Shown here one piece after another: positions 147-5,937 of a stretch of 64,000 nucleotides of DNA. The stretch spans positions 64,001 to 128,000 of the forward strand of contig CAWJAX010000005.1 of assembly GCA_963841015.1 (NCBI GenBank), written 5' to 3'. This DNA is from an uncultured Methanoregulaceae archaeon (GTDB lineage: Archaea; Halobacteriota; Methanomicrobia; Methanomicrobiales; Methanospirillaceae). Position 1 is the first letter of the stretch. The number at the start of each line of letters is the position of its first letter. Made by a program: the position numbers and the translations under genes. A model generated the notes under the pieces. It had not been told where the DNA came from. It searched no databases and worked only from the letters and a program-made list of their open reading frames with translations.

Positions 147-725
147 ATGCCACGCATTATTCACGAATACAGGGAGGAAGTCAGAAAAAAGATTGTCGAA
201 GCAGCGTACAGTCTTTTTCTCCACAAAGGGTATCACGGTACAACCATGAGTGCTATCGCCGAAGTTCTCGGTGTCACAAAAACGGCACTGTATCAGTATT
301 TTCCCGGAAAGGAGGACCTGTACGCGGCCGTTGCCGAACATGGTCGTGAGGAACTGGCCGCAATCCTGGAACGATCCTTCAAAAAAAGGGATTTGCGAAG
401 CGGTAGTGAGGTTCTTTTTGATACCCTTGCCCGGTACACCCCCCAGTTCAGCGGCATTTATTCAGAGATGATGATGCTTGCTATGCATAACGAACGGATC
501 CGGAACCTGCTCCATGAAGACCGGATTGAGGATATCCGTGTTGTTGAGCGATTTATAACAAGGCAGCAGGAAACCGGACTGGTATCCGGCCAGCTCAATC
601 CCCGCGTACTTGCGATCGCATGCGATGCACTCATGAACGGCCTTCTCATTGATATTATGTCAGGAATGGATAAAGAAGAGGCAAAAAAGATCTGGATTGC
701 AGCCGTCACCCAGCTGACGGAATAA
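147..725 (+). CDS. TetR/AcrR family transcriptional regulator
   Basis: N-terminal TetR HTH (IVEAAYSLFLHKGYHGTTMSAIAEVLGVTKTALYQYFPGKEDL), 192 aa. Confidence 0.92.
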   Translation: MPRIIHEYREEVRKKIVEAAYSLFLHKGYHGTTMSAIAEVLGVTKTALYQYFPGKEDLYAAVAEHGREELAAILERSFKKRDLRSGSEVLFDTLARYTPQFSGIYSEMMMLAMHNERIRNLLHEDRIEDIRVVERFITRQQETGLVSGQLNPRVLAIACDALMNGLLIDIMSGMDKEEAKKIWIAAVTQLTE

Positions 726-786
726 AACGATAAACGGCTTCAATTCCAGCTTGTCTTAAAATTAGGGGCTGTACTAGATTCGAGTT

Positions 787-862
787 TTATATATCCCCTC
801 ACAGCCTCAATGTTTCGAGTTGTTGCATGGGTGTTCCGTAATTAAGCATGAATCTCACACTT
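787..862 (-). pseudogene. IS1016-like transposase C-terminal remnant
   Basis: Translates as CE/FMLNYGTPMQQLETLRL*GDI* (frameshift plus in-frame stop), resembling the recalled IS1016 C-terminus ECEFRFNxGTPxQQLxxLRxWCGI. Confidence 0.7.
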
Positions 863-933
863 CGACGAGCCACTGAGTGTAGCTCAGCCGCCCCAGCCGT
901 TGACAATCCGCCAAATATCCCCTCTGCCTCACA

Positions 934-1680
934 TCACCGCGCCATCAGCGCGAATACGCCCCATCCAAGGTATTCACGCGTGTACGCGGCGTAGCGTTTT
1001 GGTTCCAAAGTCAGTTTGGCTCTAATATCTTTCGCGAGGTCGTCGTCGGGGTTCGCTTCAAGCCATCGGCGCATGGTGAGCCACTTGGCCGCTTCGTACC
1101 TATCCCAGCCTTCCTGGTCAGCCAGAACCATCTCCACAACATCGTAATCGAGGTCGCCGAAAGACGCGAGAAGTTCTGGAAGGATGAGAAAGTCGGAGAT
1201 AGAATTGGCAGAGCATCCCCTGGCAACGTCTTCCGTCGGGGGTAACCGCAGCCAGTAGGGCTCGCCGATGAGGATGATTCCTTCGGAGCGGAGACTCTTC
1301 GCCAAAAGATCGATGGTGCCGACGACTCCTCCACCGATCCACGTAGCACCGAGACAGGCTGCCACACCGACCTTTTCGGCAGCGACGTAGCCGACAGCGT
1401 CGCCATGGATGAACTCAACTCGATCGGCCACTCCGAGTTCTTCAGCGCGGAGTTTCGCTTGCTCGGTGAACAACTGGCTCATGTCGATGCCGACACCCAT
1501 GATTCCGTAATCGCGTGCCCAGGTGCATAGCATCTCGCCCGAACCGCTGCCGAGGTCGAGCACCCGAGTCCCCGATTCCAGGCGCAACACTGCGCCGAGA
1601 GTGGCGAGCTTTTCTGGTGTGAACGGGTTATGGATGCGGTGAGCACTTTCGGTAATGGTGAACATACGTGGGATGTCCAA
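934..1680 (-). CDS. Class I SAM-dependent methyltransferase, YjhP-like
   Basis: VLDLGSGSG motif I. HRIHNPFT, VLADQEGWDRYEAAKWLTMRRWLEANPDD and GWGVFAL match the recalled E. coli YjhP family. TTG start at 1680 after an AGGAG RBS gives 248 aa. Confidence 0.88.
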   Translation of the reverse strand: MDIPRMFTITESAHRIHNPFTPEKLATLGAVLRLESGTRVLDLGSGSGEMLCTWARDYGIMGVGIDMSQLFTEQAKLRAEELGVADRVEFIHGDAVGYVAAEKVGVAACLGATWIGGGVVGTIDLLAKSLRSEGIILIGEPYWLRLPPTEDVARGCSANSISDFLILPELLASFGDLDYDVVEMVLADQEGWDRYEAAKWLTMRRWLEANPDDDLAKDIRAKLTLEPKRYAAYTREYLGWGVFALMAR

Positions 1681-1697
1681 TGCACACACTCCTTTTA

Positions 1698-1865
1698 CTA
1701 AGTTGTGTAATAACTGGAATATACCCTTAGTGATTGTAGCAGAGCTGCCGTATTGGGGTGAATATCAAGCAAATTAGCTGCTGATCTTGCGGTAACTTCC
1801 AGCACGAAATATTCAAGCAGCCTAAGTTGAGTATTTTTCTTTAATTTACAATTGTTTCGCTTCAT
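1698..1865 (-). pseudogene. IS1016-like transposase N-terminal remnant
   Basis: MKRNNCKLKKNTQLRLLEYFVLEVTARSAANLLDIHPNTAAL, then diverges and stops. Resembles the recalled IS1016 N-terminus (CKLKK...FFVLEVTARSAADILGIHPNSAAL). Confidence 0.8.
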
Positions 1866-1924
1866 TTTCATAGATTAGCATATTGGCTAATCTAGTACAG
1901 CACCGAAAATTATAAAAAAAATAA

Positions 1925-3616
1925 TTATCTGTGGGTAAAATACGCTCTTACCCCTTTAGAATCTACGACATCAACCTTTACAAACCCGATGCGCTCGAAC
2001 TGGACTACATTCCCCGGTTCATTTTTCACTGCTTGTTCGCAGGCACCCGACATTTCGCCTTCCTGCGTGAGGAGTGTACAGGTAACTGAGTTCTGCACAG
2101 GCAGCCACTGGATGATCGGAGCCTTTGCTGCACGGGCTTCCCCGAGGGATTCCCCGGCATAGGAGAACGTGGGGATGTTTCCGTTCCATGCAATCTTCAC
2201 ATTAAAGAGGTCCTTGAGCCGGACCATCGTTGCATCCTGAGTGATCTCACTTCCTGGCAGGAGAACAGTTCCTTCAAATTTCAGGGTACGGGTACCTCTT
2301 GCAGCATCGCTTGGGTGGAGCATCGCATGTGCAGTATGGGGCTGTGCGCCACCAATGTGTGCAGTTACCGGATCCGGCACAAAGAAATACCGGTTTGCCA
2401 CCGGGTCAACGATCTTCTTGTTTTCTGCATAGAGGTTATCCCACGAGAATGAGATGTCGGTGTCACCGATCCCTATTGCCAGAACGGCATTCTTTACCGC
2501 ATCAGGATTGATCCCCCTCCGTGCAAGAGCACGGAGCGTTCCGAGCCGGATATCATCCCATCCGGTAAAGGTCCCATCGTTGATACCCAGGCGCATCTGT
2601 GAAGTAGAAAGAACAACACCTTCGATCCCCATCCTGCCATAGTGCCGGTAGACCGGCACCTCCCAGCCAAAATGGTCGTAGATATAGCGTTGCCGCCGGG
2701 TGTTTGCAATGTGGTCCTTGCCCCGGATCACATGGGTAACCCCCAGCAGGTGATCATCTGCAACGACCGAGAAGTTCATGAGGGGGTAGACATGCGCTGT
2801 TACCTTGGGATGAGGGGGAGAATCGAGAATTCGGAAGGCGGGGAAGTCCCGCATGGCCGGATCGGGATTGTTGAGATCGGTTTTTATCCGGACGGTCACC
2901 TCCCCTTCCCTGAACGTGTGATCGAGCATCTTCTCCCAGAGCTCGAGGTTTTGCTCCACTGGCTGGTCCCTGCACGGGCATGCAGTCTTTGCCTGCTTGA
3001 GTTCCTTAAAGTGCTCGTTGTTGCAGGTGCAGACATAGGCCCCCCCCCGCCCAATCAATTGTTTGCAAAGATCGTAGTAGAGCGGCAGACGATCACTCTG
3101 CGTGACGGTCTCGGTGATGCCAAGACCGAGCCATGCAATATCTTCGATGACCATTGCATACGCATCGGGATCAACACGTTTCGGGTCGGTGTCCTCTATG
3201 CGAAGGATATACCTTCCACCGTATTGTTTCACGTAGGCATCGTTCAGCACCGCAGCACGGGCATGCCCGAGATGAAGAGGCCCCGAAGGATTCGGCGCAA
3301 ACCGCATTACCACGCCCTGTTCTGCACCTTCCAGATCCGGGAGCCCCTTCCGGTGCTCATGTTTTACAAAAAGGGCATCGTACATGTCAGGGGCAAGGTC
3401 CTGTAGTTTTCTTACCCGATCTTCCGCAGAGAGTGCAGCAACATCGGCAATGGCTTCTTTTGCCAGAACTGCAACTTCTTTTGCCCGTGGGCGAAATTCG
3501 GGGTGGGCACCCATCACCATACCGACCACGGCACCGGCCTGCGGTACACCTCCGTGCTTCACCGCATTCTGGAGTGCACAGAGGAAAAGGAGTTCTTTTG
3601 GGTCATCCCCCGCCAT
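1925..3616 (-). CDS. gltX: Glutamate--tRNA ligase (archaeal type)
   Basis: MRFAPNPSGPLHLGHAR (HIGH motif), RIEDTDP, LSTS motif. Confidence 0.97.
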   Translation of the reverse strand: MAGDDPKELLFLCALQNAVKHGGVPQAGAVVGMVMGAHPEFRPRAKEVAVLAKEAIADVAALSAEDRVRKLQDLAPDMYDALFVKHEHRKGLPDLEGAEQGVVMRFAPNPSGPLHLGHARAAVLNDAYVKQYGGRYILRIEDTDPKRVDPDAYAMVIEDIAWLGLGITETVTQSDRLPLYYDLCKQLIGRGGAYVCTCNNEHFKELKQAKTACPCRDQPVEQNLELWEKMLDHTFREGEVTVRIKTDLNNPDPAMRDFPAFRILDSPPHPKVTAHVYPLMNFSVVADDHLLGVTHVIRGKDHIANTRRQRYIYDHFGWEVPVYRHYGRMGIEGVVLSTSQMRLGINDGTFTGWDDIRLGTLRALARRGINPDAVKNAVLAIGIGDTDISFSWDNLYAENKKIVDPVANRYFFVPDPVTAHIGGAQPHTAHAMLHPSDAARGTRTLKFEGTVLLPGSEITQDATMVRLKDLFNVKIAWNGNIPTFSYAGESLGEARAAKAPIIQWLPVQNSVTCTLLTQEGEMSGACEQAVKNEPGNVVQFERIGFVKVDVVDSKGVRAYFTHR

Positions 3617-3617
3617 C

Positions 3618-4583
3618 CTAATAGCTCCGGGTCACAAAAAATTCGCCAATTTCCATCAGGAGTTCCCGCTCCTTTGAGGGGGGAAGCAGGGAAAGATGCT
3701 TGTTACTGGAAAAAACCAGGTCGTGTGCAACATTTTTCACATCGGCAAGGACACCTTTGTCGTTCAGCTCTTTGATCACCGCATCTATCTCAGCATCAGT
3801 GAGCTCACGTTTGTAGGGTAACAAGTCGATCCCTTTCTCGCGTGCCTTGATCATAATCAGCGTCTGTTTTCCTTCCCGCAGATCAGAAGCCCGGTTCTTT
3901 CCGCTCTTTTCAGCCGGGGTTAACAGATCAATAAGATCGTCCTGTATCTGGAACGCAATCCCGGTATTCAGCCCGAAAAGGTAGAGTGCTTTTGCCTGGT
4001 GTGCGGTGCTCCCTGCAAGAATTGCACCAATTCCCGCAGCTGCAGCATACAGAACCCCGGTTTTTTTCTTCACCATTTCGAGATATTCATACTCGTCTAC
4101 ATCATTCCGGTGCGCAAAGGACATGTCCATATGCTGTCCTTCGCAGATATCGGCACAGGCACGGGCAAGCATCGACACTGCACGAACCTTTGCATTATCC
4201 TGAGCCTTTGCCAGACAGATGAACTCAAACGCCCGGGCATACAGAACGTCACCGGCAAGGATCCCGGTGGGCATATCCCATTTCGTATGGACGGTCTGGA
4301 CTCCGCGCCGGAGATTATCTTCATCCATGATATCATCATGGATAAGCGTAAACGTGTGCGTGAGCTCCAGCGCAAGCGCTGCCTGGATAATATCACCGGA
4401 ACTTCCCTTTTTTACCGCATCTGCAGCGAGCATGACGACCGCCGGGCGAAGGCGTTTCCCCCCGGCAGCGAGAAGGTGAGCACTCGCTTTGTTCAGTTCA
4501 CCAACCTTGTCGATAAAATACCGGTCGATCATGAGGTCAATTTCCTGAGCGACCGATTCCAGATACGGTAAAAGTTCTGACAT
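3618..4583 (-). CDS. idsA: Geranylgeranyl diphosphate synthase (polyprenyl synthetase)
   Basis: GGKRLRP, LIHDDIMD and FQIQDDLID aspartate-rich motifs. Confidence 0.93.
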   Translation of the reverse strand: MSELLPYLESVAQEIDLMIDRYFIDKVGELNKASAHLLAAGGKRLRPAVVMLAADAVKKGSSGDIIQAALALELTHTFTLIHDDIMDEDNLRRGVQTVHTKWDMPTGILAGDVLYARAFEFICLAKAQDNAKVRAVSMLARACADICEGQHMDMSFAHRNDVDEYEYLEMVKKKTGVLYAAAAGIGAILAGSTAHQAKALYLFGLNTGIAFQIQDDLIDLLTPAEKSGKNRASDLREGKQTLIMIKAREKGIDLLPYKRELTDAEIDAVIKELNDKGVLADVKNVAHDLVFSSNKHLSLLPPSKERELLMEIGEFFVTRSY

Positions 4584-4598
4584 TCTGTGTTCCTCGTT

Positions 4599-5937
4599 CT
4601 AGGTGAGTCTGAGCCTCTGGCCGTTTTTCATCATATGGACGGTGGAATGGGCAGTGTAGCCAAGTTCAGATGCAAAGTCTGTGTAACCTGCTGTCATCTT
4701 CAGGTGACCGTGTGCCGGGATGATATGCTGGGGATTGAGCAGGTGAATAAACTCATAATGGTCCTCGCGGTAGGCATGACCACTTACGTGAAGATCCTCA
4801 AAGATACGGGCTCCGGCCATTTTTAAGTGCTGTTCGATCTTGTAGCGCTGTCCGAAATTCATCGGGTTGGGGATCACATTTGCCGAGAAGAGAACCTTGT
4901 CGCCCTTGGTCAACTGGTAGGGTGTATCACCGAGTGCAAGACGGGTGAGGATAGAGCCGGGTTCCCCCTGGTGTCCGGTAATAATGGGCACAAACTTATC
5001 TTTCCCCGCCTTCATCATCCGGCGCATCGTCCGATCGACTGTCCGGCGGTTCCCGAACACACTGGTAGTTTCTGGGAACGAGACGAGTTTCATCTGTTCA
5101 GCAGTTACCGAGTATTTCTCCATGGAGCGTCCAAGCAGCACCGGTTTTCTCCCTATTTCATGGGCACATTCTGCTATCGTCTTGACACGGGCAATATGCG
5201 ATGAGAATGTGGAAACAAGAATTGCATTCTTGTCGTCCTCGAAACTGGTGATGGTGTCCCGAACGAGATCCTTGGCGATCCGCTCACTGGGACACCTTCC
5301 CGGGCGATCGATATAGGTACTTTCCACGATAAGGGCTATTACACCTTCTTTGCCGATCTGCCTGAGCCGGGCAAAATCCGGGGGTTGCCCTATCACCGGT
5401 GTCCGGTCAAGTTTAAAGTCACATGCGTAGACAATCGCACCCTGCGGGGTATGAAGTACCGGAGTTACTGTATCAATGATCGAATGCTGTGTGTGAACAA
5501 ACTCCAGAACGAGGTTCTGGGAAAGGGTATACCGCTGACCTGCCTTAAGCGCGAAGAGTCTTGTTGTTCACCCCGAATTTCTGTTCACCGGATATCTGTT
5601 GACGGATCAATTCCGTTGCATAGGGGGTTGCGATGATCGGTGCATTATACCGGTGCGCCAGTTTCGGGATTGCCCCGATATGGTCAAGGTGCCCGTGTGA
5701 GCAGACAATCGCCTTTACGGTTCCCTCGACCGAATTCATCATTGTATCATCGGGTATCGCCTTAATCTTGATCAGATCAAGGGAGTGCATATTCTCGATC
5801 TCCGCATCTTCGTGGATCATTACCTGGTCCAGGCGGAGTCCCATATCAAATATGACAATTTCCTTTCCGCAGCGGACAGCGGTCATATTTCGCCCGACCT
5901 CGTCATACCCGCCCACTGCTATAATCTCAATATCCAT
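4599..5937 (-). CDS. rnj: RNase J family beta-CASP ribonuclease, split by a +1 indel at ~5559 (probable sequencing error)
   Basis: [10 protein letters not shown] and SHGHLDHIG in 5545..5937; HVSGHA and IPAHG in 4599..5396. Removing T5559 joins the frames ([13 protein letters not shown]). Confidence 0.9.

What the first reader, a model, noticed from the sequence alone, without database searches (positions are those of the whole stretch)
757..1912. IS1016-like element hollowed out and loaded with a bacterial YjhP-type methyltransferase
Seen in sequence: 16-bp TIRs (15/16 identical), an 8-bp flanking duplication with one mismatch (TAAAATTA/GAAAATTA), about 42 codons of transposase-like N-terminus just inside one TIR, a decayed C-terminus just inside the other, and between them an intact 248-aa methyltransferase in the same orientation with its own AGGAG RBS. 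Established knowledge, from recall: these ends and peptides match the IS1016 group of the IS1595 family (typically 8-bp TSD, best known from Neisseria/Haemophilus), and the cargo matches E. coli YjhP. Inference: a non-autonomous cassette in which the passenger replaced the transposase core, moved as a unit in trans, and carried a bacterial gene into a methanogen, landing between the converging ends of tetR and gltX. The cargo is intact while the transposase decays, which suggests selection on the methyltransferase.
Basis: partly seen in the sequence, partly recalled or inferred. Interest (0 to 1): 0.85.

Follow-up and report, generated by a model that had tools for sequence, protein, structure and literature searches.

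The report
Gutted jumping gene carrying a methyltransferase
This is a real small mobile element in a methanogen that has lost its own transposase but keeps an intact methyltransferase gene of unknown function, a gene that travels unusually widely among bacteria and archaea.

Summary
Window 765-1904 is a 1,140-bp non-autonomous element of the IS1016 subgroup of the IS1595 family. It has 16-bp inverted ends (15/16) and an 8-bp target duplication, which is 8/8 in related strains from other public runs. It keeps about 43 N-terminal transposase codons and an intact 248-aa YjhP-family methyltransferase.

It is not a core-replacement cassette. It is an internal-deletion derivative of a 1,680-bp transporter IS, in which the transposase gene and the methyltransferase gene lie in tandem. 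One intact copy was found on a metagenome contig.

Element or cargo sequence occurs in 79 of 401 genomes of the host's order, at other loci. Its nucleotide identity there is far above that of housekeeping genes.

The transposase is decayed in 27 of 28 copies, while the cargo is intact in 28 of 28 (dN/dS about 0.2-0.35).

It is at least 83% identical in protein in more than 570 species genomes across many phyla, and in bacteria it often sits as an integron gene cassette.

Still open: whether this copy moved in trans or was gutted in place, the direction of transfer, and the enzyme's function. The scan had already seen this methyltransferase as an integron cassette on other DNA.

The parts
757..764 (.). 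Left copy of the 8-bp target-site duplication (TAAAATTA)
   Evidence: Read directly. It matches 1905-1912 at 7/8, and at 8/8 in the bridging contigs of runs X15, X1 and X2.
765..780 (+). Outer terminal inverted repeat. In the element's own orientation this is the right end, IRR.
   Evidence: The first 14 bases equal the inverted repeat printed for ISApl4 in PMC12561309.
765..859 (-). 95-bp IS 3'-end remnant: frameshifted transposase codons about 195-219, plus the IRR
   Evidence: blastn against the matching 95 bp of the intact element L132: 95 nt at 96% identity. tblastn against transposase residues 195-219: 60% identity. The same remnant lies downstream of the cargo in L132, L136, L062 and L027.
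860..933 (-). 74-nt 3' untranslated tail that travels with the cargo gene
   Evidence: 94% identical to L132. 72-79% identical to the sequence downstream of the gene in some bacterial cassette copies (L034, L048, L057, L070, L088, L104). No Rfam match and no unusual fold.
934..1680 (-). Intact YjhP-family class I SAM-dependent methyltransferase gene (248 aa, TTG start, TGA stop)
   Evidence: PDB matches: 5bp7 at E 2.6e-143, 5epe at 2.8e-130, 1nkv (YjhP) at 8.5e-123. dN/dS against 27 other IS-borne copies is 0.18-0.35.
1681..1729 (-). Cargo leader with the AGGAG ribosome-binding site (1689-1693) and a TATATT stretch about 40 nt upstream of the start
   Evidence: Conserved in all IS-borne copies aligned. 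A promoter role for TATATT is inference only.
1730..1743 (-). Remnant of the degenerate internal inverted repeat (IRR'). The deletion junction, with 3-nt microhomology, lies at 1741-1743.
   Evidence: Alignment with the long forms L027 and L062. The junction string was found in 1 of 401 order genomes, the window's own.
1744..1871 (-). N-terminal transposase remnant of about 43 codons (ATG at 1871). The open frame runs on to 1698 through unrelated sequence.
   Evidence: 42 of the first 44 residues are identical to the intact 219-aa transposase of L132.
1889..1904 (-). Terminal inverted repeat next to the transposase start (IRL), with one mismatch to the other end
1905..1912 (.). Right copy of the target-site duplication (GAAAATTA)
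   Evidence: Position 1905 reads T in contigs from three other runs.
147..725 (+). Flanking TetR-family regulator gene, ending 32 nt before the duplication
   Evidence: PF00440, E 1.6e-17.
1925..3616 (-). Flanking archaeal-type glutamate--tRNA ligase gene. Its stop lies 13 nt from the duplication, with a T-run between them.
   Evidence: NF003169, 756.7 bits against a cut-off of 516.

Best explanation
Window 765-1904 is a stranded, non-autonomous derivative of an IS1016-subgroup (IS1595 family) transporter IS, meaning an IS that carries a passenger gene.

The full element is 1,680 bp. In order it holds: left inverted repeat, a 219-aa DDE transposase gene, a degenerate internal right repeat, a YjhP-family SAM methyltransferase gene with its own ribosome-binding site and a 74-nt tail, a 95-bp remnant of a second IS end, and the functional right repeat. 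Because the internal repeat is degenerate, the transposase presumably cuts at the next good repeat beyond the methyltransferase, so the gene travels with the IS (inferred).

The element inserted by ordinary DDE transposition into an AT-rich 8-bp target in the terminator region between the converging tetR and gltX genes. This is shown by the duplication. An internal deletion of about 540 bp, from transposase codon about 43 into the internal repeat, removed the catalytic core. Whether this happened before or after insertion is unresolved. The genome holds no related transposase, so the copy is now immobile (inferred).

The methyltransferase is kept by purifying selection. It is most likely a stand-alone small-molecule methyltransferase that gives a host-independent benefit such as detoxification. 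That function is inferred and untested.
For: **Family**
- The ends equal the ISApl4 inverted repeat, and the 8-bp AT-rich repeats match the IS1016 description (passages of PMC12561309).
- The long relatives L062 and L027 hit PF12762 (82.6 and 68.8 bits; cut-off 27) and NF033547 (132.9 and 106.4 bits; cut-off 75).
- The L132 transposase scores 164.3 bits over model positions 2-214 of 215. It contains the DESYFG, VYTD, HINGIENFW-QAK and KECEFRFN motifs (one search read).

**Independent insertions with their own duplications**
- L132: 1,680 bp, 8/8.
- L136: 1,680 bp, 8/8.
- L062: 1,865 bp, 8/8.
- L027: 1,875 bp, 7/8.
- L149: 1,366 bp, 8/8.
- Plain IS copies: L135 (712 bp, 8/8) and L139 (710 bp, 8/8).

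**Deletion:** alignment.

**Trans-mobilisation within the family**
- L027 and L062 share the same disrupting insert in the transposase gene but sit at different loci, each with its own duplication.
- L149 has an internally deleted transposase gene and a perfect duplication.

**No helper:** 0 PF12762 matches in G000, which is 94% complete. A protein search finds only the 55-residue remnant.

**Real insertion:** contigs from other runs bridge both junctions. The closest relative, G017, has tetR and gltX adjacent without the element.

**Mobility among methanogens**
- 79 of 401 order genomes match.
- Element identity is 82-95%, against 67-87% for gltX.
- The element lies on a different contig from gltX in 12 of 12 relatives that hold both.

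**Selection:** 28 of 28 IS-borne archaeal or metagenome cargo genes are intact, against 1 of 28 with an intact transposase gene. dN/dS is 0.18-0.35.
Against: - No clean empty site was recovered. The G017 intergenic region (about 215 bp) is unrelated to the 41 bp left in the window once the element is removed.
- No copy with this copy's deletion junction exists elsewhere (1 of 401), so movement of this form is unproven.
- No intact close transposase was found in 301 order genomes; only fragments at 67-87% identity. The only intact ones are on two short metagenome contigs of unknown host.
- Use of the outer repeat, and skipping of the internal one, is inferred from anatomy alone.
- Expression in the methanogen is not shown. 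RNA-library contigs cover the flanks as well and cannot prove transcription.
- The cargo's function is unknown, despite three crystal structures. The one knockout study I read found that none of its four knockout strains, yjhP among them, grew worse (passages of PMC12096079).
Confidence: 0.85

Rival explanations
1. The 1,140-bp hollow cassette already existed, and a helper transposase supplied in trans moved it into this site as a unit. The helper was later lost.
For: Other defective forms of the family have clearly transposed: L149 with a perfect duplication, and L027/L062 with a shared disruption at different loci. The two ends of this copy are still 15/16 alike. No helper remains in the genome.
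Against: The deletion junction occurs only in this lineage (1 of 401 order genomes), and the genome has a single copy. A form that had spread would be expected at other loci. Other genomes show many different deletion sizes between the cargo and the transposase-side end (extra lengths of 123, 260, 308, 542, 725 and 738 bp). That suggests deletions arise repeatedly in place.
Confidence: 0.4
2. A longer, possibly autonomous, transporter IS inserted here, and the transposase core was then deleted in place by recombination at a 3-nt microhomology.
For: The junction is unique. It shows 3-nt microhomology. Different deletions recur in other copies. Related strains in other runs carry the same junction at the same locus (records bridging 1741-1743).
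Against: No longer allele at this locus was seen in the four runs laid, but contigs drop rare variants. No intact transposase of this type was found in 301 genomes of the order.
Confidence: 0.5
3. The methyltransferase is a vertically inherited archaeal gene that merely has IS debris beside it.
For: Distant homologues (27-34% identity) are present in several families of the order.
Against: - The close copy is absent from the same site in the nearest relative.
- Distribution is patchy: 79 of 401 genomes, with 0 of 12 and 0 of 39 in two families.
- It sits on other contigs than gltX in 12 of 12 relatives.
- Nucleotide identity is far above that of housekeeping genes.
- An AU test rejects a single archaeal clade (p 1.8e-5).
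- The target duplication brackets the whole unit.
Confidence: 0.02
4. The gene arrived here as an integron cassette by integrase-mediated recombination, and the IS-like ends are incidental.
For: The same gene is an integron cassette in many bacteria. The first bases of the cargo leader faintly resemble a cassette boundary.
Against: The window element has no attC-like site (sequence read). No integron integrase was found in G000: the best hit scores 52.6 bits against a cut-off of 265. The unit is bounded by IS1016 repeats with an 8-bp duplication, which is a transposition signature.
Confidence: 0.02

Closest known systems
IS1016-subgroup insertion sequences of the IS1595 family, e.g. ISApl4 (PMC12561309; passages read)
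   Same: The 14-bp terminal repeat is identical. Target repeats are 8 bp and AT-rich. The transposase is about 217-219 aa with the same motif string. Plain copies of 710-716 bp exist in the same family (L133, L135, L139).
   Different: This copy lacks the catalytic core and carries a passenger gene. The hosts are methanogenic archaea, not Pasteurellaceae or Neisseria. I could not query ISfinder, so I cannot say whether a named entry exists.
Transporter IS (tIS), described in the TnCentral preprint as restricted to the IS1595 and IS66 families (10.1101/2021.05.26.445724; passage read)
   Same: The full-length relative L132 is exactly that: IS-like ends enclosing a transposase gene plus one passenger gene.
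   Different: The window copy has lost the transposase. The passenger lies between a degenerate internal repeat and a second end remnant, which points to an origin from two IS copies. From recall, published tIS belong to other IS1595 subgroups; I did not check this.
Mobile insertion cassettes (MICs) such as MIC231 of Bacillus cereus (recalled; no paper read)
   Same: IS ends flanking a passenger gene with no transposase, mobilised in trans by the cognate IS.
   Different: A different IS family. Trans-mobilisation here is shown only indirectly for sister copies, not for this one.
Integron gene cassettes and integrase-less cassette clusters (CALIN)
   Same: The same methyltransferase gene, 83-90% identical in nucleotides, is a cassette in many bacteria. 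These copies have a GTTRRRY boundary about 40 nt upstream and an attC-like site downstream. In one case an integron integrase lies within about 3 kb.
   Different: The window copy has no attC, the genome has no integrase, and the copy moved by transposition.
Tn7560, the ISApl4 pseudo-compound transposon (PMC12561309)
   Same: IS1016-type ends mobilise genes that lie between two IS ends.
   Different: Tn7560 has two complete IS copies and four resistance genes. Here the second copy is reduced to 95 bp and there is one cargo gene.

Membership tests
IS1595 family, IS1016 subgroup | Terminal inverted repeats beginning GGGGCTGTACTAGA | tested here: met
   765-778 is exact. The reverse complement of 1891-1904 has one mismatch. 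The reference motif comes from PMC12561309.
IS1595 family, IS1016 subgroup | 8-bp (7-9 bp) AT-rich direct target repeats | tested here: met
   7/8 in the window and 8/8 in three other runs. 8/8 in six sister insertions.
IS1595 family, IS1016 subgroup | A DDE transposase of about 217 aa with the DESYFG / VYTD / HINGIENFW-QAK / KECEFRFN motifs | tested here: not met
   The window copy keeps only about 43 N-terminal and about 25 C-terminal codons. The motifs and a full-length NF033547 match (164.3 bits) are present in the sister element L132. This copy is therefore a non-autonomous derivative, not a functional IS.
IS1595 family, IS1016 subgroup | Length about 710 bp with one ORF | tested here: not met
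   The window copy is 1,140 bp with a passenger gene. Plain 710-716-bp members exist (L133, L135, L139).
Transporter IS (tIS) | Transposase gene and passenger gene(s) together inside one pair of IS ends | tested here: not met
   Met by L132 and, with a frameshift, L136 (both 1,680 bp). The window copy has lost the transposase gene.
YjhP family of class I SAM-dependent methyltransferases | Full-length homology to E. coli YjhP, with a Rossmann SAM-binding motif | tested here: met
   PDB 1nkv: E 8.5e-123 over residues 4-251. yjhP DNA: 72-73% identity over 98% of the gene, in 1,665 of 5,426 E. coli genomes. Methyltransferase Pfam domains hit above cut-off. The VLDLGSGSG motif is read.
YjhP family of class I SAM-dependent methyltransferases | Known substrate or activity | not testable with these tools
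   PDB entries carry only generic names. In the passages read, the papers treat yjhP as uncharacterised.
Integron gene cassette | An attC recombination site at the 3' end and a GTTRRRY boundary at the 5' end | tested here: not met
   Absent from the window element. Present beside bacterial homologues: my crude scan found attC-like sites within about 150 nt of the gene in 9 of 80 loci. 33 of 92 rows have a cassette-type leader.
Integron gene cassette | An integron integrase in the genome | tested here: not met
   G000: best TIGR02249 hit scores 52.6 bits against a cut-off of 265. 4 of 5 bacterial genomes tested have one above the cut-off.

The most novel reading that the evidence does not exclude
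The YjhP-type methyltransferase is a cross-domain cargo gene that two unrelated mobilisation systems have taken up: integrons in bacteria, and an IS1016-type transporter IS in methanogens. The transporter IS would be a route by which the gene spread through methanogenic archaea, now in about a fifth of Methanomicrobiales species genomes. It would be held there by selection for a host-independent protective activity, for example methylation of an environmental toxin or antibiotic in anoxic sediments. That would make an uncharacterised E. coli protein a widespread environmental resistance or detoxification determinant.
Probability: 0.3. Interest if true: 0.7.

Novelty: new member of a known kind. 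Interest (0 to 1): 0.5.

Why it matters
This is a clean, well-documented case of an IS-borne passenger gene spreading through methanogenic archaea. The whole decay series is visible: plain IS, IS plus cargo, then several independently gutted forms.

The cargo also matters. It is one of the most widely shared genes I saw, at least 83% identical in protein across more than 570 species genomes of many bacterial and archaeal phyla. It is carried both as an integron cassette and as IS cargo, and it is under purifying selection. Yet it has no known function, despite three crystal structures and membership of an antibiotic-induced E. coli operon. That makes it a good target for functional work.

As a mobile element, though, it belongs to a known kind.

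Tried and rejected
- **Empty site.** The nearest relative, G017, keeps tetR and gltX adjacent. Its roughly 215-bp spacer is unrelated to the window's, so no pre-insertion sequence could be read.
- **Helper in the genome.** None was found by Pfam family search or by protein search.
- **Autonomous copy in the order.** In 301 genomes, close hits are fragments only. The other IS1595-family transposases found are 35-55% identical and belong to other groups.
- **Same deletion junction elsewhere.** None in 400 other genomes.
- **Structured RNA in the cargo tail.** No Rfam match, and the fold z-score is -0.96.
- **Expression.** All four runs laid are contigs. RNA-library contigs cover the flanking genes too, so they do not show transcription. 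No run held half or more of the sampled words.
- **Cargo boundary versus cassette boundary.** I asked whether the 5' edge of the cargo coincides with an integron cassette boundary. The alignment shows only weak likeness upstream of about -30, so I leave this open.
- **Literature.** Five searches found no paper describing this element or a function for YjhP. Subscription journals and ISfinder were not searchable.
- **Contig C4 site.** I did not follow up the single end-like 16-mer on contig C4 (2 mismatches). The control pattern hit equally often.
Full report
**1. Observation**

- The two 16-bp ends (765-780, and the reverse complement of 1889-1904) agree at 15 of 16 positions. They are the only matches in the window.
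- In the whole 2.28-Mb genome the only other site has 2 mismatches, and a backwards control pattern hit as often.
- The 8-bp flanks are TAAAATTA and GAAAATTA.
- Between the ends, all on the minus strand, lie:
  - a 95-bp remnant with a frameshifted transposase C-terminus (765-859);
  - a 74-nt tail (860-933);
  - an intact 248-codon methyltransferase gene (934-1680, TTG start, AGGAG 8 nt upstream at 1689-1693);
  - a 49-nt leader;
  - a 14-nt remnant of a degenerate internal repeat (1730-1743);
  - about 43 N-terminal transposase codons (1744-1871).
- The element sits between the converging 3' ends of a TetR-family gene and an archaeal-type gltX.
- The host is a methanogen: McrA lies on the same contig.

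**2. The insertion is real**

Contigs from three other public runs bridge both junctions at this same site. Examples are X2 records covering 562-1089 and 1624-2200, with matching records in X15 and X1. These contigs differ from the window by a few percent, so they come from related strains. All three read T at position 1905, which makes the target duplication a perfect 8/8 there. The mismatch in the window is therefore a later point change.

**3. What the ends and peptides belong to**

A paper on ISApl4, an IS1016-subgroup member of the IS1595 family, prints several features (PMC12561309, passages read):
- a 14-bp inverted repeat identical to the first 14 bases of this element's ends;
- 8-bp AT-rich target repeats;
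- a 712-bp length;
- a transposase motif string.

Longer relatives of the window element in other methanogen genomes (L062, L027) encode proteins that pass the curated cut-offs of PF12762 and NF033547.

A scan of metagenome contigs with that protein found 34 loci.
- L132 is a complete 1,680-bp element. It has both ends, a perfect 8-bp duplication, an open 219-aa transposase and the 248-aa methyltransferase. The transposase scores 164.3 bits on NF033547 over model positions 2-214 of 215 and holds all four motifs.
- L131 has a 99% identical open transposase gene, but the contig ends inside the cargo.
- Plain IS copies without cargo are 710-716 bp (L133, L135, L139). Two of them have perfect duplications.

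**4. Anatomy and origin of the window copy**

Aligned with the long forms, the window copy lacks everything from transposase codon about 43 to the internal degenerate repeat. The junction shows 3-nt microhomology.

In the full element the methyltransferase lies downstream of the transposase gene. It sits between a degenerate internal right repeat (about 12 of 16 positions like the outer one) and a 95-bp copy of the IS 3' end that carries a good repeat.

So the passenger did not replace the core.

The likely history (inferred):
- two IS copies bracketed the gene;
- the downstream copy was cut down to its last 95 bp;
- the internal repeat decayed;
- the transposase then used the outer pair of ends.

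**5. A family in decay that still moved**

Sister copies show many independent internal deletions: elements of 1,366 bp (L149) and about 1,447 bp (L146, L152). In the order-wide search, the extra length between the cargo and the transposase-side end was 123, 260, 308, 542, 725 or 738 bp.

L027 and L062 share one disrupting insert of about 165-185 bp in the transposase gene. They nevertheless sit at different loci, each with its own duplication. L149 has a perfect duplication despite its deletion. Defective members have therefore been moved in trans.

For the window copy itself this is not shown.
- Its junction string occurs in 1 of 401 order genomes, its own.
- The genome holds one copy.
- The genome has no IS1595 transposase domain (G000 is 94% complete).
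- In 301 order genomes, close relatives of this transposase (67-87% identity) are fragments only.

I rate deletion in place and trans-mobilisation as about equally likely.

**6. Distribution in the host's order**

Element or cargo DNA matches 79 of 401 genomes at E <= 1e-30. Without G000, by family: f1 61/220, f2 7/20, f3 0/12, f4 0/39, f5 5/55, f6 5/54. By genus it is 14 of 44.

In the first draw of 40 relatives, identity of the element was 82-95%, while gltX was 67-87%. The element lay on another contig than gltX in 12 of 12 genomes that hold both. The closest relative, G017, has tetR (90%) and gltX (87%) adjacent without the element, but its spacer is unrelated, so no exact empty site could be read.

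One gene row (L022 from G038) is identical to L038, whose title is Methanoculleus sediminis. This places the order as Methanomicrobiales.

**7. The cargo**

It is a YjhP-family class I SAM methyltransferase.
- PDB matches: 5bp7 (E 2.6e-143), 5epe (2.8e-130) and 1nkv, labelled 'hypothetical protein yjhP' (8.5e-123).
- E. coli yjhP is 72-73% identical in DNA and is present in 1,665 of 5,426 complete genomes.

The gene is strikingly promiscuous.
- A protein search scored 7,998 of 8,000 candidates at E <= 0.001. The best 120 are 84-94% identical, with names spanning Methanoregula, Methanocella, Desulfocarbo, Planctomycetota, Victivallaceae and Pseudodesulfovibrio.
- The best 80 are 83-95% identical in protein. 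By record title, 15 are archaeal and the rest span many bacterial phyla.

**8. Integron cassette context in bacteria**

In many bacterial loci, homology to the window begins about 14-45 nt before the start codon, at a conserved leader that follows a GTTRRRY core. It ends soon after the stop. attC-like inverted repeats lie next to the gene.
- A crude attC scan found such sites within about 150 nt of the gene in 9 of 80 loci.
- A curated integron-integrase model passes its cut-off in 4 of 5 genomes tested. In the Methylocaldum record it lies about 2-3 kb from the gene, with one internal stop. In another genome it lies 30 kb away on the same contig.
- Of 92 intact gene rows, the contexts were:

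| Source of row | Context | Rows |
|---|---|---|
| Bacterial | Cassette-type | 32 |
| Bacterial | Unclassified | 28 |
| Archaeal | IS-type | 22 |
| Metagenome | IS-type | 6 |
| Bacterial | IS-type | 3 |
| Archaeal | Cassette-type | 1 |

- Rows left out: L072, L083 and L096, whose fixed-length extraction did not give an open frame. Also left out were copies cut by contig ends (L036, L131, L138, L140, L142).
- Earlier notes of this scan had also met this methyltransferase inside integron or CALIN arrays on other DNA. I had seen the cassette context myself before reading them.

**9. Tree and selection**

I built a quick maximum-likelihood tree of the 92 rows, rooted on E. coli yjhP, which is a long branch.
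- All 27 Methanomicrobiales and metagenome IS-borne copies fall in one group (SH-aLRT 92).
- That group lies inside a 42-row side (99) whose other members are mostly bacterial.
- A 50-row cassette clade (99) forms the other side.
- An AU test rejects a single clade of all 23 archaeal rows (p 1.8e-5). It does not reject one clade of all 31 IS-context rows (p 0.31).

This fits one capture by the IS and at least two crossings between domains. It favours a bacterial source for the methanogen copies. Deep forks are weakly supported, however, and the direction is not established.

Selection on the cargo:
- Nei-Gojobori dN/dS of the window gene against 27 IS-borne copies is 0.18-0.35.
- The median over 376 IS-borne pairs is 0.30.
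- The median over 514 cassette pairs is 0.21.
- The cargo ORF is intact in 28 of 28 IS-borne archaeal or metagenome rows. An open full-length transposase gene accompanies 1 of those 28.

**10. Function**

Function is unknown.
- The next-best solved structures after the family itself include several natural-product and other small-molecule methyltransferases (TnmJ, MppJ, MitM, LahSB, a glucose O-methyltransferase) alongside RNA and ribosomal-protein L11 methyltransferases, all at E 1e-8 to 1e-3.
- In E. coli, yjhP is the third gene of the topAI-yjhQ-yjhP operon. [quoted passage not shown]
- One study of four knockout strains, yjhP among them, reported that none grew worse (passages of PMC12096079).

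My commitment, at about 50%, is that it is a stand-alone small-molecule methyltransferase with a protective, host-independent effect. This rests on three points: it moves as a single gene, it works across domains, and it stays under purifying selection.

**11. Comparison and verdict**

Transporter IS are a described class, said to be restricted to the IS1595 and IS66 families (TnCentral preprint, passage). Transposase-less cassettes moved in trans are known as mobile insertion cassettes (recalled). So the element is a new member of a known kind.

What is less ordinary:
- the archaeal hosts of an IS1016-type element whose ends are identical to those in Pasteurellaceae;
- the visible decay series;
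- a cargo gene that uses two unrelated mobilisation systems across two domains.

I could not query ISfinder, so prior naming cannot be excluded.

Noticed in passing
L009 (G009:C16) 100-2479; also run X1: One element, 2,380 bp between good ends, holds two tandem copies of the methyltransferase. They are separated by a copy of the IS-end remnant plus the internal repeat. A contig in run X1 shows the same head-to-tail joint (1743 back to 816).
   Followed up: partly
L027 about 3620-3810 and L062 about 3630-3810: Both long elements have the same insert of about 165-185 bp in the transposase gene, flanked by a repeat of about 19 bp. Its reverse strand reads like a fragment of some other protein-coding gene. 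Its origin was not traced.
   Followed up: no
L034, L048, L057, L070, L088, L104 (downstream of the methyltransferase): A subset of bacterial cassette copies shares the 74-nt tail of the IS-borne gene (72-79% identity), ahead of their attC site. Another subset has a different spacer. The tail has no Rfam match and no unusual fold.
   Followed up: partly
L070 (1.0-Mb contig titled Candidatus Bathyarchaeota) and L026 (11.8-kb contig titled Bathyarchaeia): The gene also occurs in Bathyarchaeia-labelled assemblies: once in cassette context with an attC-like site at 4895-4954, and once in IS context. The binning of these contigs was not checked.
   Followed up: no
L047 about 3750-4790 (Opitutales MAG): A bacterial copy of the element has an independent hollowing-out: the transposase N-terminus is joined directly to its C-terminus. 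The right repeat lies only about 12 nt after the methyltransferase stop. The ends are degenerate and there is no clear duplication.
   Followed up: partly
G026, G027, G031, G032, G036, G037, G038: Distant homologues of the methyltransferase (27-34% identity) are present in all sampled genomes of two families of the order that lack the mobile copy. They may be native family members. Their contexts were not examined.
   Followed up: no
G000:C4:28523-28538 (L003): A solitary 16-mer like the element's end, with 2 mismatches. The control pattern hit as often, and no element DNA or transposase homology was found there by the whole-genome searches.
   Followed up: partly
L133 1192-2415 (minus strand): A 407-aa ORF with a Fic-type motif (HPFRDGNGR) lies between a plain IS copy and the start of a second, cargo-bearing element on one metagenome contig.
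   Followed up: no
(aligned start regions of 34 copies): Most copies of the methyltransferase gene, bacterial ones included, start with TTG rather than ATG.
   Followed up: no
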